This document shows, piece by piece, positions 11,646 through 41,818 of a stretch of 64,000 bases of DNA. The notes under the pieces were generated by a model. The model was not told the origin of the DNA and made no database searches. It saw only the letters and a list, made by a program, of their open reading frames with translations. Made by a program: the position numbers and the translations under genes. Location of the stretch: contig NC_092371.1 in assembly GCF_030028105.1 (NCBI RefSeq), forward strand, positions 205,776,031 to 205,840,030, given 5' to 3'. Positions within the stretch are counted from its first letter, which is position 1. Each line of letters begins with the position of its first letter. This DNA comes from Mobula birostris (taxonomy: Eukaryota).

Positions 11646-14600
11646 TGCATCTGAAAGATATAACAGTTTGATCATTGTAAAGGGGTAAGCAACAGTGGCA
11701 TATTTAAACTATCTGCATTTTATACACCAGAAGAGATTTTGAAATGAGATTTGTTCACACCATCATTTTCAACAAACTCATTTTCTTATTAGTCACAGAT
11801 TTTTGCTAACACTAAGCCTACGATTACCAGCGTTCTTTTGACAACGCAGGTCAGCAAGCCAGTAGAGGTCCAGTGGGCACAGTTGAACCCACTGCATGTT
11901 AGACGTCCCACTTGTTGTTGGTGACTATCAGCAAGCACCCATTGTCTGTTTGTGAGTTGCAATGTGTGATTGTGATGTTCCAGGTATGATTGAATAGCTC
12001 TATTCAAAATAGAGTGCAATGTGTCTGTTCAGATACTGGAAGAACCTCAGCATGTGAGTGAAGATCTGTTGCTATTTTGTCTCATGTACAGTACAAGTAT
12101 AAAATCACTACATTTTCCTTTGTATGAATATAGATTTTATATGCTTCATTCTTTGCATTAACCACACTGTCAACCTCTCCCAATGTCAATTCACTGTTAT
12201 CTCAGAAAGCATTAACTAAAGTATTCAGGGTTGCGATTTATTGAAAATGAAATTGAAATTCAGATTGGCCAATATTTAATTGAAAAGCTGAAGTTATGTG
12301 AACACTGAATAATATACATCTGTTTCTATCTTATATTATGCTTCAGTTCCATCTAATATTCTAAACTTTAGGCACGTAATGGAAATAAACTTCTAATTTT
12401 CATGGTGTAATGCAAATGTTCCACATTACAGCTTTGGAATGCACTGGTTTTGAAATTTTGTTCCCCTGGGTGAAAATCATCAGTTTCCTGAAAAAATAAA
12501 AGCTGGACAGAACTGCCTTCATCCCTCATTTCCTGTACATGAGTAACTGATAGAATTTAGTCTCTAGTGTGCACATTTAATCAATAATGAAGTATAGCCA
12601 AGCGCAGAGAAATGAAGGGACTGGAATGACATCAAAGTAAATAATCTGTTTTTCTTTCTCTTTCTAGGGCAGTAGTATACTTCTTAACATGGGAGGAGAA
12701 GGAGGTATACATTGCTCCTAATGTATTTTCCTCATTTAATCCAATAATGGGCTGATTTCTTAGTTGAGGAGAATCTAGTTGTCTACTGCGATTTGTGCAT
12801 TAGTATCTTTAAGTGTATTTACAGGATGACTGTGAGGATGGAATGATGGAAAACATCTGGTGGAGACCATTTTGTTAAATGGAACTCCGTAAAGTAAGAT
12901 GCTCAGATAAGCTCATTGCACAGATTTTTGATTGTGTCTTCATTAGTACTCCAAGTAGCAACATTCTGTGCTAATTTGCTACAGGATATCCATGCTAAGT
13001 TATTGACGTGCCCAGCTTTGTGGCAGATATCTAAGGCAGAATCTGACATGAAATAGCACCTTATATTTTAATTCCTTCTGAGAAAAGGTGGGTATCAAGG
13101 TAGACCTCAAAGAGGTAGTTACTGACTCAAGCACTTGTTATGGTATTTGGAGCAAAATATTGTCTCTGATCCATTTGTGTCTGTGTTGGTATTGCCATGA
13201 CTTGCCTGGATTTGGTGACTATGGCAAACAGACTGTGCTAGTTGTTCATTATTAAGTTAATCAAGCTTAATGCTTATTTTGAAGTATTTCTGAAGGTATT
13301 GCAGTTGAACTACATTCCTTCCCTTGGCACCATATTAGCAGCTGAACGACGCACAATTAAATGGAAACTGACTTGAACAGATGCCAAACAGAAAAGCTAA
13401 CTCAATACGTGCTTAATGAGATGAAACTGTATAGAACTCAAAATAACCTCTCTAGATCCATATCTTCAATGTAATGTTATGAAAACTATATCCTTAGAGA
13501 TTGTTTTAGTGATACACTTATCTACCACTGAATTTTCTGACAAGAGGGGAGTTTTTTTTCCTATTGATCTGGACTCAAAGGCTTCTTAGCACCTAGTGGG
13601 GTCAAACTTCACATAACTCAGTGTAAATGACCTCATAACCATACTGTTTCCAAACCCTTTTATAGATTATCAATGTTTACAGAATGTAAAGTATCTATTG
13701 GGATCTTGATGAACTAATCGAAAACTATTGTTGCCTTCATTCTTTCTTCAGCCTTTTAAGTTTCCCTGCTTAAAATATTTATCAGTTTTTAAGAGGGTCC
13801 ATATTTTGAAAAGTTGCATGATGCTGTAAGATCTCCTGAAAGGTTCACCACTAAAATGCTGACACAGTTTCCAGCTCCATAAATATTGCCTGATCTGCTG
13901 AATATTTCCATTTTTATTTAAGACCTAACAGATGTTGTGTACACTAGATATCATTGGAAAGAAAATTGTAAGATTTTCAGTGAATTGTATTGAATTATGA
14001 TTGACAATAACAGGTAAGCATAAGCAGCTTACAGAAGTACATGTATGAACCTTAAGATTAAAGAGCCAAAATGAAATGTCCCTGCTTGGTTGATTACATT
14101 TGAGAAAGAATGTTACTAGCTATTTTCGGTTAAAAAAAAGTACTTTTGTTGTAGGAGAGAATGATGGCTGCGAAACAGGGTAAAGGAACCACAAAACCCT
14201 TACACCAATTCACCGTATCTCCATTGAGCATAAAATAAAGGCTAATCTGTGTTAACTAAACTAAGGCTTTTTGGAACACATTCTCTTCAAATTTTACACG
14301 GAGCTATAAACAGCCCTGACCTGCATGTAAGCCACTCTTTCATCATTGTTACTAACTTAAAAACTTCCAAAATCTTACTAAGAGCATTGCAGAAGTAAAT
14401 TTACTAAGATATCCTGCTATCACCTTCTGAAGAGCTATTGGGGATGAGTACAAGCCTTGCCAGCGGCACTCACAGTGTAAGAATATTATCAGGACGTGTA
14501 GATATTGCTAATCCCCTGACTTGCTGCTTAGCTGACTGAAGCCACTGTGTGATATTCTCTTCACTAATGCACAATACTAATAGTTTTGCCATTATTCCAA

Positions 14601-15073
14601 ATATAAAATTCGCAACATCATTAATCATAAAATGTAGTCATGACAGTTACTATATGGTAATTAAGAAATGTTAATCAAAGCAATAAATACAAAATAATAT
14701 GTCAAATCAGAATGAAAATTTTAAAAAATGCAGGCTGTAGATATAAAGTCTCTTTGTCTTCAAACAGAAACATTAACTATGTATATCTTTCCAAATATGC
14801 TGCCTGACTTATTCAGTATTTTCAACATTTCTGCATTTATTTACGTTGAGCAGTTTTACCCTAGAAGATACAAGGTCAGCAGATAGTTGTACATGTGGTG
14901 AAAGCAGTATTTATGATCCAGTAATGCTGTTGCTTGAAACTGCTTCTGACAGGCACAGTTATTATTCTTATTTAGTGCAGTACACATCAAAGGCTTCCTA
15001 GTCTCCATTCCCTTTTGCTGCTATTTGGTGGTGGCACTGCTTCATTACCGGAAACCACAGTTGCTATGCTCAT

Positions 15074-15322
15074 CTAGATATTAAACAAAATGTGAGGTCG
15101 GATTTTCTTAAGGAGTGCTTTTTTCATTGAACCAACATGGAAGAGTGCTTCATCAATCTCTAGGCCCCTGTTACGAATTTTCTGCAAAGTTGTTGCTCCA
15201 TTGTTGGAGGGACTTCCATCCATGATTAAGTATGTTCGGATAGGGCATTTCTGACGTTCATTTTTGGCAAAGAACTTGCGTTGGACTCCACCAAGTAGTT
15301 CCAGAAGTTCTTCGAGAGGGTC
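15074..15322 (-). CDS. NT5C1B: NT5C1B-like terminal exon, copy 2 (divergent; stop where the DDQ motif should end; possibly a pseudoexon)
   Basis: Acceptor tttcacaaacAG, then phase-0 DPLEELLELLGGVQRKFFAKNERQKCPIRTYLIMDGSPSNNGATTLQKIRNRGLEIDEALFHVGSMKKALLKKIRPHILFNI*. Collinear without gaps with the cN-I last exon (CPIRTYL, GLEIDEALF, KIRPHI). Not in the ORF track. Confidence 0.85.
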   Translation of the reverse strand, partial: DPLEELLELLGGVQRKFFAKNERQKCPIRTYLIMDGSPSNNGATTLQKIRNRGLEIDEALFHVGSMKKALLKKIRPHILFNI

Positions 15323-15789
15323 CTGTTTGTGAAACAGGTCAATTACAACTTCAGAAAAACTAGCTGCAACATCTCTGAGAATGAGAGCATTAAGATCATA
15401 TGTTATTAACGTATCACTTTAGGCCAATTCAATTCAAAATGGTAATGGAATCAAACATCCTTCCTCATTACTTTGTTACCTGTGGTGCCCAAAAGTTGCT
15501 TTGCATGCTTCTGTGTTATGATTGTGGTTCCAGTCCAGGCTAAAGATAATGCTAGTTTAGAATAGGCATGGAATTACACTCAGAAGTTTAAGTGCAGCAA
15601 GGTTTTTTTTTCTCTTGTATTTTTGGAAGGATTTTCTGTTTTGATGAACACGGTTCCACGGGAGAATAAGCTGTGAAAACTAAATTGGATATAATCTCAG
15701 GCTGGTAGATGTGCTTCCTACATATACTAACAAAAAATTTAGGGAGCAACTAATAAATTCAAAAGTATATATGGAAGGTTCAATATTAT

Positions 15790-33666: not shown

Positions 33667-36600
33667 CGGTCTGGAAGAATAATACTTTTCCTAACACGGG
33701 AGAATCGAAGATAATTTTCTGAAAAAAGAGTTCAAACTGTTTTGGTTTTGCTAACAGTTTTACAAATGTGGGTTTGCAGCCTCCGTTGACACTTCAATTG
33801 TCTGGGAATGTAGCTGAGAACTGGAGAAAATTTAAGCAACGTTTTGAATTGTATTTATCGGCGATTGATGCGGATTGAAAACAGGAACAAAATGAAAGCT
33901 GCGCTTCTACTCCACGTAATAGGTGACAACGCAATTGAGGTGTATAATCATTTTATTTTTGAAAATGGAGATAATTTAAAGTTAAAATCGATAATGGATA
34001 AATTTGAAGCATTTTGTATACCGAAACGTAATGTGACGTATGAGTGGCATAGATTTTTTACGTGTATGCAGAGAGATTGTGAAACTATTGATCAATATGT
34101 TACTAAGTTGAGACATCGGAGTAAAACATGCGAGTTTGGGGAGCTGACAGACTCTCTCATCAAAGACAGAACTGTTTCTGGAATTCTGGATGATGGTCTG
34201 AGAGAAAGACTGTTAGGAGAACAAGACTTAGACTTGGAAAAAGCTTTGATGCTCTGCAAACCTTCGGAAACCGTGACATCACAGGCTAAAGGACTTTTCA
34301 TTGAGAACTGCAACATGTTAGAAAAAGTAATAAAATGATAACAAAACCGACAGAGAGCAAGACGTCATCTCAGAGAAAAAAGTGATGTGATCGCTGTGGG
34401 GGGCAGCATCGGCCAAAACAGTGTCCAGCGTATGGGAAAATGTGCAACGACTGTGGTAAGAGTAATCATTTTTCACGCTGTTGCAGAAGTAGAAAGAAAA
34501 TAAAACAAGTAAATGCAGTGCTTGAAAATGAACTGGAGGAGTTTTATATAGATGTGCTTTGTGAAAACAAACAAAGTAAGAATGGCTGGACTATTCTATT
34601 GCAAGTGAACCAAAACAATATTCTATTTAAACTTGATACTGGAGCACAAGTAAATGTTCTTGTGGAATCTCAGTTTAATGCATTAAAACCAAGACCAAAG
34701 GAACATAAGGCAAATATGATTGGGTATTCAGGTGCAGACATTCCAGTTAAAGGAACATGTGTGGCAAAAGAATCACACAAAAATATTGTGCACACACTTT
34801 CATTTGTGGTGGTGCCAAAGAATGTACAGTCAATACTCGGTTTATCTGCCTGTGAGAGACTGAATTTGGTGAGAAGAGTGTGAGTCCTGGACAGTGACAC
34901 AGAGTCAGAATACAGTGACTTGATGAAAGAGTATGAGGACTTGTTCAAAGGGCTTGGTTATCTTCCAGGACAGCACACGATTAAAATTGACAACACAATG
35001 CCACCCGTAGTACATCCATGTAGAAAAGTGCCTTTTGCATTACGTCATCAACTGAAAACAGAGCTTGACGGAATGGAACAGCTAGGAGTCATAAAAAAAA
35101 TTGATGAACCGTCTGAATGGGTCAACTCGCTTGCCATTGTTGATAAGAAAAATGAAAAATTGAGGACTTGCTTAGATCCAAGAGACTTGAATCGAGTCAT
35201 TAAAAGAGAGTGTTTCAAATTGCCTACTTGTGAACAAATTATGCCACAGTTTGATAATGCAAAGTACTTTAGTAAATTAGATGCATCCTCTGGATTCTCG
35301 CAACTTAAACTAGATGAACGTTCAAAGTTGTGTACCTTTAACACTCCTTTTGCCAGATACTGTTTTCTTTGACTTCCATTTGGAATTGCATCAGCTCCTG
35401 AAGTGTACCATAAAACCATTCACATGCTCTATGAGCACATTGAGGGCGTGGATACTTCCATGGATGATATAATTGTTTGGGGATTATCTAAACAAGAGCA
35501 TGACGCCAGGCTCAGACAAGTCTTTGAGGCAACACGCAAGGCAAACCTGAAGTTGAATAAAGACAAAATTCAGCTAGGAGTGTCTGAACTTACCTTTGAG
35601 GGTGATATCATCAGCAAAGAGGGTGTGCATCCTGATCCATTGAAGGTTTCTGCTATTGAGAACATACCAAGATCGCAATGTAAAAAGGATGTTCAAAGGT
35701 TCATGGGAATGGTCAACTACATGGGAAAACTCATACCCAATCTTTTGGAACAGCTTGCTCCATTGAGGCTGCTAACAGAAAAGAGAAACAAATGGAGCTG
35801 GAATCATGAACAGGAGAAGGCATGGCAAAATCTCAAGAAAGTGCTCACTAAAGAACCTGTGTTGAAATTCTATGATGTTGAGAGACCCATCAAAATCTCA
35901 TGTGATGCATCTCAAGCAGGCTTAGGGGCAGTATTACTCCAGAAACATGATCAGCAATGGCTAAAAGTGGCATATGCATCTCGTTCATTATCTGATCCAG
36001 AAACAAGGTACAGTATGCCCAGATTGAAAAAGAATTGCTCAACATTATGTCTGCTTGCGAGAGATTTCATCAGTTTGTGTCAGGGCAACCTATTGATGTT
36101 GAAACTGATCATAAGCCTCTGATTACATTATTTCACAAACCTTTAAGTGACTGTCCTTTGCGAATTCAGTGAACGATGATCAAATTGCAAGTTATGTATT
36201 GAATGTTTCATACACACCTGGAAAATTCATGTACACGGCTGACATACTTTCCAGAGCTGTGGATCCAACAACAAAAGACGTCACAGGGACGCTGCTGATG
36301 TTCAGGCTTTTGTTAATATGATCATAGAGACTATAACTGTTGCTCCCGAAAAGTTGGAACTGCTGCGTCTTGAGACAGAGGAGGATAAAATTCTCAGTCA
36401 TGTAATACAAGTGGTGATGGATGGATGGCCAGATAATAAGCATGACTGTACCTCAGAGGTACATGAATATTGGAACCACAGATCAAAACTTTCTGTTGTG
36501 GATGGGATATTGTACAAAGCCAGCAGAATTGTGATTCCTAGAGGTCTCTGGAAAGAAGTGCTTGGGAAAGTTCTTGAAGGCCACCTAGGTATTGAAAAAT

Positions 36601-37650
36601 GTAAAAGAAGGACACGGGAAGTGATGTTTTGGCCCAGGATGAATCAAGAAATTGTGGAATTGGTGTCTTCTTGTCAAATATGCCTTAAATACCAACCTAG
36701 CAACCCTAAGGAGCCACTGCATCCACATCCTAGTCCTCAGAGACCTTATCAGAAAGTAGGCATTGATCTTTTTGTAACTGACAACAAAGATTATCTTTTA
36801 ATAACAGATTACTGCTCATTGTATCCTAAAGTGTGTGGTCTGAGCAGAACAACTGCAGAGAATGTAATTACATGCATGAAATCAGTTTTTTCCAGACATG
36901 GTGTACCTGATGAAGTTTTCACAGACAATGGTCCACAGTTCAATGCTGAATGCATGAGACATTTTGCTCATGAATGGGGCTTTGTTCATACAACATCTAG
37001 TCCATTTTTCCTTCAATCCAATGGATTAGTTGAGAGATCGGTAGGAATTATGAAGAAACTGATGTACAAAGCAAAAGATAGTGGAGGTGATTTTTATAAA
37101 GCTTTGTTAGCCTATTGCAGTACTCCAATTGAATGTGGATTTTCACCTGCTCCGCTCTTGATGGGACACTGTTTGAGATCCAATCTGCCAATAGATGAGA
37201 GCCTTCTGAGAACAGAGGGAGGTGAACAAGTGAAAAGATGGAAAGATGAACACAAAGCAAAGCAGAAAACATACTTTGACAGATGTTCTCAATCATTACC
37301 TGAACTGCACCAAGGAGATGAAGTAAGGATACAAGACAAAATGAACACATGGACACAGAAAGCTACAGTATTTGAAGAAGTACAACCCACATCATACATG
37401 GTCCAAACAGAAGGAGCAGTGTTAAGAAGAAATCGCAAAGACCTCAAGAAAGAGCCAACTTTAGAGTTTCAGTTAACTAATGCAGACGAGACAAAACGTG
37501 GAAATAACAACGAAACGCAAGAACTGTGTGAACCGCTTAGAAGGTCTACTCGTGTTCATAAGCACCCAGGGAGGCTGATAGAGACATGTTAAATCATGCA
37601 TTTGTTACGGTCAATATTGCTAATTGTTTTTCTTTTTAAGGAAAGGAAGA

Positions 37651-39149: not shown

Positions 39150-39155
39150 TTTATT
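39150..39155 (-). terminator. Candidate polyadenylation signal for NT5C1B-like exon copy 1
   Basis: AATAAA on the minus strand, about 160 nt after the TAA at 39314. Confidence 0.4.
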
Positions 39156-39313: not shown

Positions 39314-39613
39314 TTAACGGATCTTGCCTTGTGTACCAACTGCTACATTTGATTGGTTGAATGCCTGTTCATCAAAGTAAAGATGTGGGCATATTTTATC
39401 TAAAAGTACCGTTGCAGATAGGTCAGATAAGATGAATGCCTCGTCAACTTCCAGCCCCCAGCTACGAATTGTCTTCAAAGCTTTTAATCCAACAGCAGAA
39501 CCGCCCTTTTTTATGATCATGAATACTCGAATTGGACAATCCTTACGTTCATTTTTGGCATAGAACTTTTTCTGGAGTTTTCCGACTGCTTCCAAAAATC
39601 CTACGAGGGGGCC
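39314..39613 (-). CDS. NT5C1B: NT5C1B-like (cytosolic 5'-nucleotidase I) terminal exon, copy 1, divergent
   Basis: Acceptor tttcacaaatAG, then phase-0 GPLVGFLEAVGKLQKKFYAKNERKDCPIRVFMIIKKGGSAVGLKALKTIRSWGLEVDEAFILSDLSATVLLDKICPHLYFDEQAFNQSNVAVGTQGKIR*. Exon boundary matches the cN-I last exon (GPLKGFLE); FYAKNER is NT5C1B-like. Confidence 0.92.
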   Translation of the reverse strand, partial: GPLVGFLEAVGKLQKKFYAKNERKDCPIRVFMIIKKGGSAVGLKALKTIRSWGLEVDEAFILSDLSATVLLDKICPHLYFDEQAFNQSNVAVGTQGKIR

Positions 39614-41818
39614 CTATTTGTGAAACAGGTGAATTACAATTTGGAGAAACAACGAGTGCATATTTTCCAAAATTTGATAATTCAACTTGTGCTACAATTA
39701 TATTCCATTATTTCAACAACTCTTTCTCTTACTCACCAATCCCACCTCCCAGCTAAATATCCAGTCACAATTTCAGAGTTTTTCTGAACTCCAATTAGGT
39801 CTAACTTTTAATCAACCTTTACATTTCACAATAAACATATCCTTTTCCTTAGGGACAAAAATTTTGCTTCGATTCAGTCAGAGTCATTTCTGGAAGAACT
39901 TCCAGTTCTACAGAAAGTTATGGAAACTTCCTTAAAACCTGCTGCATTGTTGAAATGTTTATCTCTTTTATTTTCATTCTAACATATTTATTTCAATTCT
40001 GTAGAACCCATTCTTTTCCAATTACAGTATATTCATAAGGTTTCCAGGCATTTAGGAAAGGTTAAGGTAATATTGTTCTTTTGAAATTCTACCCCTTCAA
40101 CATTGAAAGATTTCTACAAATAGAAATGTTTCACAAAATCATGTAATTAAACTTTGTGATGATATAATGAGGGTAATGTTCCATTTGCGTCTGTAGCATT
40201 TTAAGAGCAAGTCAGGTGTGGGGTTCCAAAAATACACAACAAATATGTGAAGGTCCAAAGGTACCAGATTCTACTTGTAATTTCATTCTGGAATATTGGG
40301 GAGTAGGATGGGAAAGAGAAGGCTGAAATTCCATTTGACCCAGGAAATTTGCTGAATGCCAGAGATTGTGGACCAAGAAGAAAGAAGTACACACTTGGAT
40401 TCTCTTTGCCCCCAGTAATAAGACATGCAGACCACTTGAGGACCCAAAACCTACATCCCTGTCGGAATGAAAAATGATCAATACCTACATTAAAGATATA
40501 AGTGGTACAGATAAAAGTTAGCTTAAAAACTATCTAAAGCCAGTTCCATACTCTTCTTGCACCTCAAAAGTCATCTACTTATAGTTACATTAGCACAAAC
40601 CTTCTCCCAGTGAGAAGGTCCACAAAATCAACACACTAATTTTTTTTTAATGTAGCATGATCCTTTTACCATGAGTTAACATATCTAAATATAAACAAAC
40701 AAAACAACTTTACTTTTATCTGAATTAACTATAGTGACTGATTATATTTATACAACTTTTCAACAAACTTTTTAGTATAAATTAGGTTATGATATTTCAA
40801 ATTGAGCACATTACATTCTACTGCTGTTGTTTTCAGTTTTCCAAGGTAATAAGTGGAATTGGGACATTGCCTACTGACGCGAGCAGTGTCATGACACACT
40901 AGTTTGCAGCAGTGCAGTGATTCTAATAAACCTTCAGTACCAAGATCTCTCTGCATATACTGATGTACTCCTGGGGATACTTAAGAAATGTTAAGCTGTC
41001 CGTCCTGACTTCTGAGAAACAGTCTATTTAAAAGGAATCAAAAATATCCACAGCAAGCACCAATATAAAATTATAACAATATATTGGTTTAAACAAAGTA
41101 TATTATTTAGGCATTAAGACATTGACACAAGTGTCCAAGTGAGGCACCTTTGTGTTTGTCCATGCAGGCAGGTCTGGAAATGTGCTACATGCTTGTTGAA
41201 CTGATTGCCTCGCCTAAATATCCTTGAGCCGTAGAAGCATAATCTTGAATCTTGTTATATTAAATTAAGTAATCCGTGATAGCTGAAGAACCCTATGAAG
41301 AATTTGTCTTCTTTAGTTGTGTGCTTTCAGTAGGACTACTTCACTTCAAACTTTATTAGACATTCAGACCAAACATGGACAAAAGCATTACATTTCAGTG
41401 ACAATGAGTGCTCTTGACATCAAGGAGCAGTTAATGAAGCATACCATCATGAAGCCATGAGAAATGAAGAGAACACTCTCCACTAGCAGAAGTCCTACAA
41501 AGCAACAAAAGAATGGTTGCTGTTGTTTGAAGTAAACCATCTTTTAAGACCATTAGACTTAGGAGCAGAATTGGGCCATTTGGCATATTGAGTCTGCTCT
41601 GCCACTTGATCATAGCTGATTTAACTCTGCCATTTGACCATAGCTGATTTGATCAGCTCTCAACCTCAGTCTCTTGCTTTCTCCATGTAACATTTTATGC
41701 CCTTACTAATCAAGAATCTACCAACTTCAGCTTTAAGTATACTCAGTGACATCACCTCCACAGCCATCTGTGGTAATGAATTCCACAGATTCACCATTCT
41801 ATGGCCAAAGAAATCCTT

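What the first reader, a model, noticed from the sequence alone, without database searches (positions are those of the whole stretch)
39314..39613. Active-site loops rewritten on a conserved scaffold: probable pseudo-nucleotidase or altered-specificity isoforms
Seen, against canonical cN-I (recalled): motif II YLVTARS becomes FMIIKKG (copy 1) and YLIMDGS (copy 2). Motif III LAGAPK becomes LSDLSA and HVGSMK. Motif IV FFDDQ becomes YFDEQ and LFNI*. Scaffold segments (QxKFxAKNERxxCPIR, GLExDEA, LLxKIxPH) are retained. Identity between copies is 2/10 at residues 31-40 and 1/10 at 61-70, versus 6-7/10 in the best-conserved blocks. Known: HAD phosphatases need the motif II Ser/Thr, motif III Lys and motif IV Asp pair, and cN-I is oligomeric. 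Inference: the fold is under selection while catalysis is lost or changed, consistent with regulatory or dominant-negative subunits or nucleotide sensors.
Basis: partly seen in the sequence, partly recalled or inferred. Interest (0 to 1): 0.7.

Follow-up and report, generated by a model that had tools for sequence, protein, structure and literature searches.

The report
Shark-ray pseudo-nucleotidase with alternative last exons
Many sharks and rays keep a second copy of the AMP-degrading enzyme NT5C1B whose phosphate-binding residues and substrate lid are lost while its front half stays conserved, so it is likely a non-catalytic regulator, and in this ray it has three duplicated last exons, two of them with splicing support.

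Summary
Confirmed and extended. The interval is the last coding exon of a tandem NT5C1B paralogue lying between the intact gene and RDH14. Databases call it 'NT5C1A-like' in 21 shark and ray species. The motif II Thr is lost in 28 of 28 aligned paralogue rows and the Lys in 27 of 28; motif I DxD and the first motif IV Asp are kept in all 28. The substrate cap has decayed, while the N-terminal HAD-fold half evolves as slowly as in the intact enzyme. 'Copy 2', and a third copy just outside the window, have no upstream exons of their own. A ray contig joins the gene's micro-exon directly to copy 2, so it is an alternative last exon; copy 3 splicing is untested. Correction: copies 2 and 3 keep the motif III Lys; their decisive loss is motif IV. 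Best reading: a pseudo-nucleotidase, likely a regulatory partner of intact cN-I (complex prediction weak: 0.53 vs 0.00). A cap-less phosphatase with a new substrate is not excluded. Constraint on copy 2 is weak. No paper was found, and no earlier scan note names NT5C1.

The parts
39314..39613 (-). Last coding exon, copy 1 (annotated form) of the NT5C1B paralogue: C-terminal HAD core with motif II Thr to Ile (39514-39512), motif III Lys to Ala (39415-39413), motif IV DD to DE (39373-39368); stop TAA. Its upstream exons lie outside the window: a 33-nt micro-exon at G000:C3:205842089-205842121 (about 2 kb past the window's end) and five more exons up to C3:205883380
   Evidence: 99/99 identical to the end of P0146 (XP_072136736.1)
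39614..39660 (-). 3' end of the intron before copy 1 (acceptor AG); matches copy 2 at 26 and copy 3 at 22 of the last 30 bases, the intact gene at 13
39150..39155 (-). First AATAAA downstream of copy 1 (candidate poly(A) signal; use not shown)
15074..15322 (-). Alternative last exon, copy 2: 82 codons; motif II Thr to Met, motif III Lys kept (15124-15122), motif IV Asp to Asn and stop two codons later. A third copy lies just outside the window's start (G000:C3:205774981-205775229; keeps Thr and Lys, Asp to Asn then stop; splicing not tested)
   Evidence: spliced to the micro-exon in run X1; orthologue 77/82 identical with the same end in P0145
14817..15073 (-). 3' UTR of copy 2 as far as the X1 contig reaches, with AATAAA at 14841-14836 (a repeat overlaps 14767-14830 and could also end the contig)

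Best explanation
This is the last exon of a tandem NT5C1B duplicate of sharks and rays that has lost its phosphate-binding Thr and Lys and its substrate cap but keeps an intact N-terminal HAD-fold half, and it is likely a non-catalytic partner that would co-assemble with and tune the intact cN-I enzyme. Shown: the gene order (intact NT5C1B, paralogue, RDH14), the residue losses, the split pattern of constraint, and splicing of copy 2 as an alternative last exon. Predicted: both HAD cores still fold and the cap is disordered. Inferred: no or only trace AMP hydrolysis (about 0.8); a working role through the conserved N-terminal half; co-assembly with intact cN-I (about 0.5); and that choosing copy 2 or 3 gives subunits that also lack the Mg site and the end of the C-terminal domain.
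For: Residues (rows include isoforms and are not independent): motif II is Ile or Val in 28 of 28 aligned paralogue rows, Ser/Thr in 266 of 268 aligned other rows; motif III Lys in 1 of 28 against 263 of 270. Both residues contact the phosphate in HAD nucleotidases and the cap binds the nucleoside (PMC3946280, passages). Same species pairs, paralogue against intact neighbour (five pairs, not independent): N-half 35/720 against 38/720 differences, cap 45/180 against 0/160, C-core 33/405 against 9/405. Models: cap pLDDT 37-42 in the paralogue, 95-98 in an intact enzyme; residues 48-193 match HAD phosphatases (Z 12.4, rmsd 2.3, 119 aligned). Tree: one clade, stem 1.24 changes per column and short branches after it; sister to the intact C3 gene at 90/83, not starred. 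RDH14 follows on the same strand. No other NT5C1 exon was found near copies 2 and 3. Complex prediction with a shark NT5C1A-type enzyme: 0.53, best of 3 controls 0.00, runs agree in at least 92% of contacts, partner pLDDT at least 75; verdict weak support.
Against: No assay. D210, D212 and D338 are invariant and position 339 stays acidic in all 28 rows, which a dead site need not keep. Two lysines are nearly fixed in the new motif II loop (16/17 and 15/17). Heptranchias keeps the motif III Lys. A complex score of 0.60 or under was reached by only 5 of 78 solved complexes and by all 4 mismatches that passed, close relatives of a true partner tend to pass, and the partner used was NT5C1A-type, not the neighbour. 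The oligomeric state of cN-I is recalled; a 2025 paper says the native structure is unsolved (PMC12195718, passages). Co-expression with the intact gene is unknown.
Confidence: 0.5

Rival explanations
1. The copy-1 isoform is a cap-less, Mg-dependent HAD phosphatase with a new, probably large substrate; the new loop lysines stand in for the lost Thr and Lys.
For: DxD and D338 invariant, 339 acidic, in 28 of 28 rows; K292 and K293 nearly fixed; a long stem followed by stasis fits a new function; small HAD phosphatases (T4 PNKP phosphatase domain, MDP-1) are among the top fold matches, though mostly to the N-half.
Against: The motif II hydroxyl is lost in all rows and the Lys in 27 of 28; the C-core evolves about 3.7 times faster than in the intact gene; copies 2 and 3 remove motif IV altogether.
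Confidence: 0.18
2. A non-catalytic protein that works without the intact enzyme: an abundant tissue-specific structural or scaffold protein, or a stand-alone ADP/AMP binder through the N-terminal half.
For: Same residue and constraint pattern as the best explanation. Contig depth differs more than 100-fold between two runs of one study (copy 2: 628.5 in X1, 4.77 in X2; copy-1 type pieces 5005.7 and 20.9), a hint of tissue restriction. cN-IA binds contractile elements (PMC10383617, passages).
Against: Contig depth is a poor measure of expression and the tissues are unknown; the weak complex score leans the other way.
Confidence: 0.3
3. Copy 1 is functional, but copies 2 and 3 are tolerated, slowly decaying exon duplicates whose products do nothing (bears only on the extra exons, so it is compatible with the readings above).
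For: Copy 2 against organism A: about 7 non-synonymous and 3 synonymous among the 10 listed changes, 2-3 more unlisted. Copy 2 against copy 3: dN 0.39, dS 0.55, and 68 of 500 bootstraps gave pN at least pS. No shark protein with copy 2 or 3 turned up. The stop removes the last helix and strand of the domain.
Against: Both frames are open and gap-free over 81 codons at dS 0.55-0.9, where a neutral simulation leaves no stop in 9-23% of runs at 0.25-0.5 changes per site, and far fewer if indels are allowed. Both keep ancestral residues where nearly all of 17 copy-1 orthologues are derived, and nesting inside rays is rejected (AU p 2e-8; long branches, 82 columns). Copy 2 is spliced and keeps its stop in organism A and in P0145.
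Confidence: 0.4
4. The interval is a neutral pseudogene fragment or an assembly artefact.
For: None found beyond the lost motifs.
Against: Full open frames in 21 species, spliced skate-like contig proteins (P0007, P0151, P0152), constraint equal to the intact gene in the N-half, copy 2 in other organisms' runs.
Confidence: 0.02

Closest known systems
Cytosolic 5'-nucleotidase I (NT5C1A/NT5C1B, Pfam PF06189), intact neighbour P0347 (XP_072107443.1)
   Same: Family match (267 bits), matching exon layout of the core exons, NT5C1B-RDH14 position, N-terminal half and motif I DGD, C-core about 58% identical to intact enzymes
   Different: Motif II Thr and motif III Lys replaced, second motif IV Asp mostly Glu, cap replaced by a variable loop predicted disordered, conserved C-tail lost, three last-exon copies
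Pseudoenzyme paralogues that regulate an active relative (e.g. the pseudokinase Fam20A, seen only as a search listing, PMC4421857; pseudophosphatases in general, recalled)
   Same: Duplicate with lost catalytic residues on a conserved fold
   Different: HAD nucleotidase family; binding and regulation not shown here
Tandemly duplicated alternative last exons (general mechanism, recalled)
   Same: Copies in a row behind one donor, with shared acceptor sequence and own stop and candidate poly(A) signal
   Different: Each copy holds motifs II-IV of the active site, broken in a different way
Degenerate teleost NT5C1-like proteins (P0212 Arapaima, P0232, P0279)
   Same: Catalytic motifs eroded on the cN-I scaffold
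   Different: Separate origin: they group with the C13 gene, not with this paralogue (long branches); motif I is lost as well

Membership tests
cN-I family (PF06189), by descent | Profile match over the curated cut-off | tested here: met
   267 bits against 28.2 for P0146; 62.5 and 42.7 for the two exons alone
cN-I family (PF06189), by descent | NT5C1B locus: next to RDH14 and sister to the intact neighbour | tested here: met
   RDH14 about 33 kb past copy 3, same strand; sister grouping 90/83, not starred
Active HAD nucleotidase | Motif I DxD | tested here: met
   DGD in 28 of 28 aligned rows
Active HAD nucleotidase | Motif II Ser/Thr | tested here: not met
   Ile or Val in 28 of 28 copy-1 rows; Met in copy 2; Thr kept in copy 3
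Active HAD nucleotidase | Motif III Lys | tested here: not met
   Ala in 27 of 28 copy-1 rows (Lys in Heptranchias); kept in copies 2 and 3
Active HAD nucleotidase | Motif IV acidic pair | tested here: inconclusive
   Copy 1: first Asp 28 of 28, second Glu 23 and Asp 5; copies 2 and 3: Asn then stop, not met
Active HAD nucleotidase | Ordered substrate cap after motif I | tested here: not met
   32% identity between shark and ray paralogues against 83% among intact enzymes; pLDDT 37-42 against 95-98
Active HAD nucleotidase | Measured nucleotide hydrolysis | not testable with these tools
   needs an assay
Regulatory pseudoenzyme | Fold kept under selection | tested here: met
Regulatory pseudoenzyme | Binds and modulates an active relative | tested here: inconclusive
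   0.53 against best control 0.00, weak support only; modulation untested
Duplicated alternative last exons | Copy 2 spliced to the shared upstream exon | tested here: met
   X1 contig: 27 loose letters match the micro-exon end 23/27, next best 18/27 in 264 kb
Duplicated alternative last exons | Copy 3 spliced to the shared upstream exon | not tested
   no read data for this stretch; intact acceptor, frame and AATAAA only

The most novel reading that the evidence does not exclude
Sharks and rays evolved a dedicated inhibitory or sensing subunit for AMP breakdown, and rays switch it by choosing among three ancient last exons that disable the active site in different ways (copy 1 keeps the Mg site but not the phosphate clamp; copies 2 and 3 keep the Lys but lose the Mg site), giving tissue-specific control of AMP, adenosine and AMPK signalling; the conserved half marks the unmapped regulatory domain of human cN-IA/IB.
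Probability: 0.2. Interest if true: 0.75.

Novelty: new variant of a known kind. Interest (0 to 1): 0.5.

Why it matters
No cN-I sequence relative is in the PDB copy searched and the role of the enzyme's N-terminal HAD-fold half is, to my knowledge, unassigned. A natural paralogue that keeps exactly this half while dropping the catalytic clamp and cap is a ready probe for where ADP activation and oligomer contacts reside in human cN-IA, an AMP/adenosine regulator and myositis autoantigen (PMC10383617, passages). It also shows that the label 'cytosolic 5'-nucleotidase 1A-like' hides a probably inactive NT5C1B duplicate in 21 species, and that a spliced isoform is missing from the protein sets searched.

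Tried and rejected
Separate genes for copies 2 and 3: tblastn and hmmsearch --max over the six frames of the window plus 32 neighbouring 10-kb stretches (ORFs cut at stretch ends could be missed) found no upstream exons for them. Copy 1 chained to copy 2 as in model P0145: its 29-residue filler has no match in the window region; treated as a probable gene-model artefact, not proven. Proteins ending in copy 2 or 3: none among 70 hits (longer), 150 listed of 177 or 28 hits; only the cluster member P0145. These searches are word-limited or clustered, so this is weak. No RNA holder listed on record. PDB sequence searches were empty; Foldseek gave nothing at E 0.001 or better. The figure 'N-half better conserved than in intact enzymes' (87.6% against 75.6%) used unequal divergence depths and is replaced (equal rates). 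Paper searches: NT5C1A + shark 3 papers, none on this by title or start of abstract; nucleotidase 1A + stingray 0; NT5C1B + RDH14 + duplication 3 (2 listed), unrelated; elasmobranch + cytosolic 5 nucleotidase/NT5C1 0; one search listed 15 of 237, none holding 'nucleotidase 1a'; for background. Supplements were not searched; expression tables there may list the gene. Earlier scan notes near this place: none.

Full report
Observation. The finding's interval is one open exon on the minus strand, 99 codons and a stop, with the motifs quoted. The second copy lies at 15322-15074. Both match Pfam PF06189 above its cut-off, and the block identities are as stated. The exon is 99/99 identical to the end of P0146, a record labelled Mobula birostris 'cytosolic 5'-nucleotidase 1A-like'.

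Locus. The window is G000:C3:205776031-205840030. On the minus strand the order is: an intact cN-I gene (core exons C3:205923985 to about 205893800, all motifs canonical), a complete second gene (start at 205883380, four more exons to 205864024, a 33-nt micro-exon at 205842121-089), three copies of the last exon (copy 1 in the finding, copy 2 24 kb on, copy 3 at 205775229, just outside the window), then RDH14. That RDH14 follows NT5C1B in mammals is recalled. The paralogue groups with the intact neighbour (90/83, not starred) and away from the NT5C1A clade (100/99), so it is best read as a tandem NT5C1B duplicate despite the database label. No upstream exons of their own were found for copies 2 and 3.

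The paralogue. Proteins with the copy-1 end are listed for 9 ray and skate species and 12 shark species; no chimaera appeared, and its absence was not tested. The 11 put in a tree form one clade with a long stem and short later branches (quick tree). In 28 aligned paralogue rows (of 29; one lacks the last exon, one lacks motif I) motif II is Ile or Val, motif III is Ala in 27, motif I DGD and the first motif IV Asp are invariant, and the second is Glu in 23 and Asp in 5. Among the other 273 rows, 266 of 268 aligned have Ser/Thr and 263 of 270 have Lys. In HAD nucleotidases these two residues hold the phosphate, the aspartates hold Mg, and the cap binds the nucleoside (PMC3946280, passages read; it numbers the motifs I-III). 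For five pairs of ray species with both genes, differences in paralogue against intact gene were 35/720 against 38/720 in the N-half, 45/180 against 0/160 in the cap and 33/405 against 9/405 in the C-core (pairs share species). AlphaFold2 gives both cores high confidence and the cap 37-42 pLDDT, against 95-98 for the cap of an intact shark enzyme. The N-half (48-193) is itself a HAD fold (Z 12.4 to the T4 PNKP phosphatase domain, rmsd 2.3, 119 aligned) and has no DxD in intact enzymes either. So cN-I is, by inference, a non-catalytic HAD domain joined to a catalytic one, and the paralogue has kept the first while eroding the second.

The extra exons. The three copies share the last 30 intron bases (22-26 of 30, against 13-14 with the intact gene) and are closer to each other at synonymous sites (dS 0.55-0.9) than to the intact gene (1.4-2.3), so they arose from the paralogue's own last exon. 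At 21 positions where copy-1 orthologues are derived, copy 2 keeps the ancestral residue at 6 and copy 3 at 10, and both share the derived residue at 2. Trees that nest them within rays are rejected (AU p 2e-8 and 6e-9; 82 columns, long branches, LG+G4); grouping them with the intact gene is not rejected (p 0.14). This suggests an origin before the shark-ray split (age recalled, about 270-300 million years), but no shark orthologue was found. In run X1 (organism A, about 95% like the window; RNA is the tool's guess) one 536-base contig covers 14817-15324 and goes on with 27 letters that match the end of the micro-exon 23/27, next best 18/27 in 264 kb. This is a splice over 50.7 kb that skips copy 1, in frame. 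A contig of X2, same study, covers 14861-15324 and also starts 27 letters before its match, but those letters were not printed. X3 covers 15063-15231 only. Run X4 (kind unknown) goes on into the intron. Copy 2 is therefore an alternative last exon. For copy 1 the junction rests on the annotated proteins and on contig-derived proteins. Copy 3 has an intact acceptor, frame and AATAAA, but its splicing is untested. Copies 2 and 3 keep the motif III Lys, copy 3 also the Thr; both turn the motif IV Asp into Asn and stop one residue later, losing the Mg ligands and the last helix and strand seen in the intact model.

Against my reading. Constraint on copy 2 is weak: 5 of 82 residues differ from the Hemitrygon orthologue (copy 1: 4 of 81; intact gene 1 of 81; cap 5 of 43), and about 7 of 10 listed changes in organism A are non-synonymous. 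dN/dS between copies 2 and 3 is about 0.7 and not distinguishable from 1. The invariant acids and the new loop lysines leave room for a changed phosphatase in the copy-1 form. The complex prediction (Stegostoma paralogue with Stegostoma NT5C1A-type enzyme, alignments not used by the tool) scored 0.53 against a best control of 0.00, with at least 92% contact agreement and partner pLDDT 75-76; the tool calls this weak, reached at 0.60 or under by 5 of 78 solved complexes and by all 4 mismatches that passed. That cN-I is a tetramer is recalled; PMC12195718 (passages) says the native structure is unsolved and reports multimers. ADP activation is from PMC10383617 (passages).

Mechanism. Shown: duplication, residue loss, split constraint, alternative splicing of copy 2. 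Predicted: fold. Inferred: a protein with little or no nucleotidase activity (about 0.8) that acts through its N-terminal half, most simply as a subunit in mixed cN-I oligomers that dilutes or allosterically tunes AMP breakdown (about 0.5), with the last exon setting the C-terminal surface and Mg site.

Known and new. It is a cN-I family member by descent and fails the tests for an active HAD nucleotidase on motifs II, III and the cap. It works, most likely, like other pseudoenzyme paralogues. Five targeted paper searches (listings only, open-access library, supplements not searched) found no description. Earlier scan notes hold no NT5C1 finding; two unreviewed notes report other catalytically altered paralogues in sharks and rays, leads only, which suggest such cases are not rare. 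Verdict: real, a new variant of a known kind, interest 0.5.

Noticed in passing
G000:C13:68845778-68877898 (L002, L008, L009, L014, L035-L038): A third, divergent NT5C1 gene with intact motifs (DGDSV, VTARS, AGAPK, FFDD); it groups with a motif-eroded teleost family (P0212, P0232), suggesting a little-noticed third vertebrate cN-I lineage (long branches).
   Followed up: partly
G000, whole genome: No NT5C1A-type gene was found, only the C3 and C13 loci (counts are lower bounds), whereas Stegostoma has one (P0038). Possible loss in this ray.
   Followed up: partly
window 36000-37590 (+): Degenerate LTR-retrotransposon pol remnant (Integrase_H2C2 and rve) about 1.7 kb beyond the copy 1 stop, inside the intron used for copy 2.
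   Followed up: partly
window 39424-39422 (-): The Asp of LSDLSA is nearly private: most orthologues have Gly; Pristiophorus also has Asp.
   Followed up: yes
P0007, P0156, P0149, P0004, P0147: More splice variants in skates and Narcine: skipping of the 41-codon exon in the N-half, skipping of the micro-exon, and a Narcine form with an unrelated last exon. The micro-exon appears only in ray and skate rows.
   Followed up: no
P0145 (Hemitrygon akajei model): Chains copy 1 to copy 2 through a 29-residue filler, leaving copy 1 where the window has a GC-type donor-like site; filler not found here.
   Followed up: partly
P0162 (Sarcophilus harrisii): A marsupial NT5C1B-like protein with motif IV FFND and a changed cap; another possible eroded cN-I.
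   Followed up: no
window 13864-13915 and 14750-14830: Short interspersed-repeat pieces that collect many unrelated contigs; the second overlaps the end of the copy 2 UTR.
   Followed up: no
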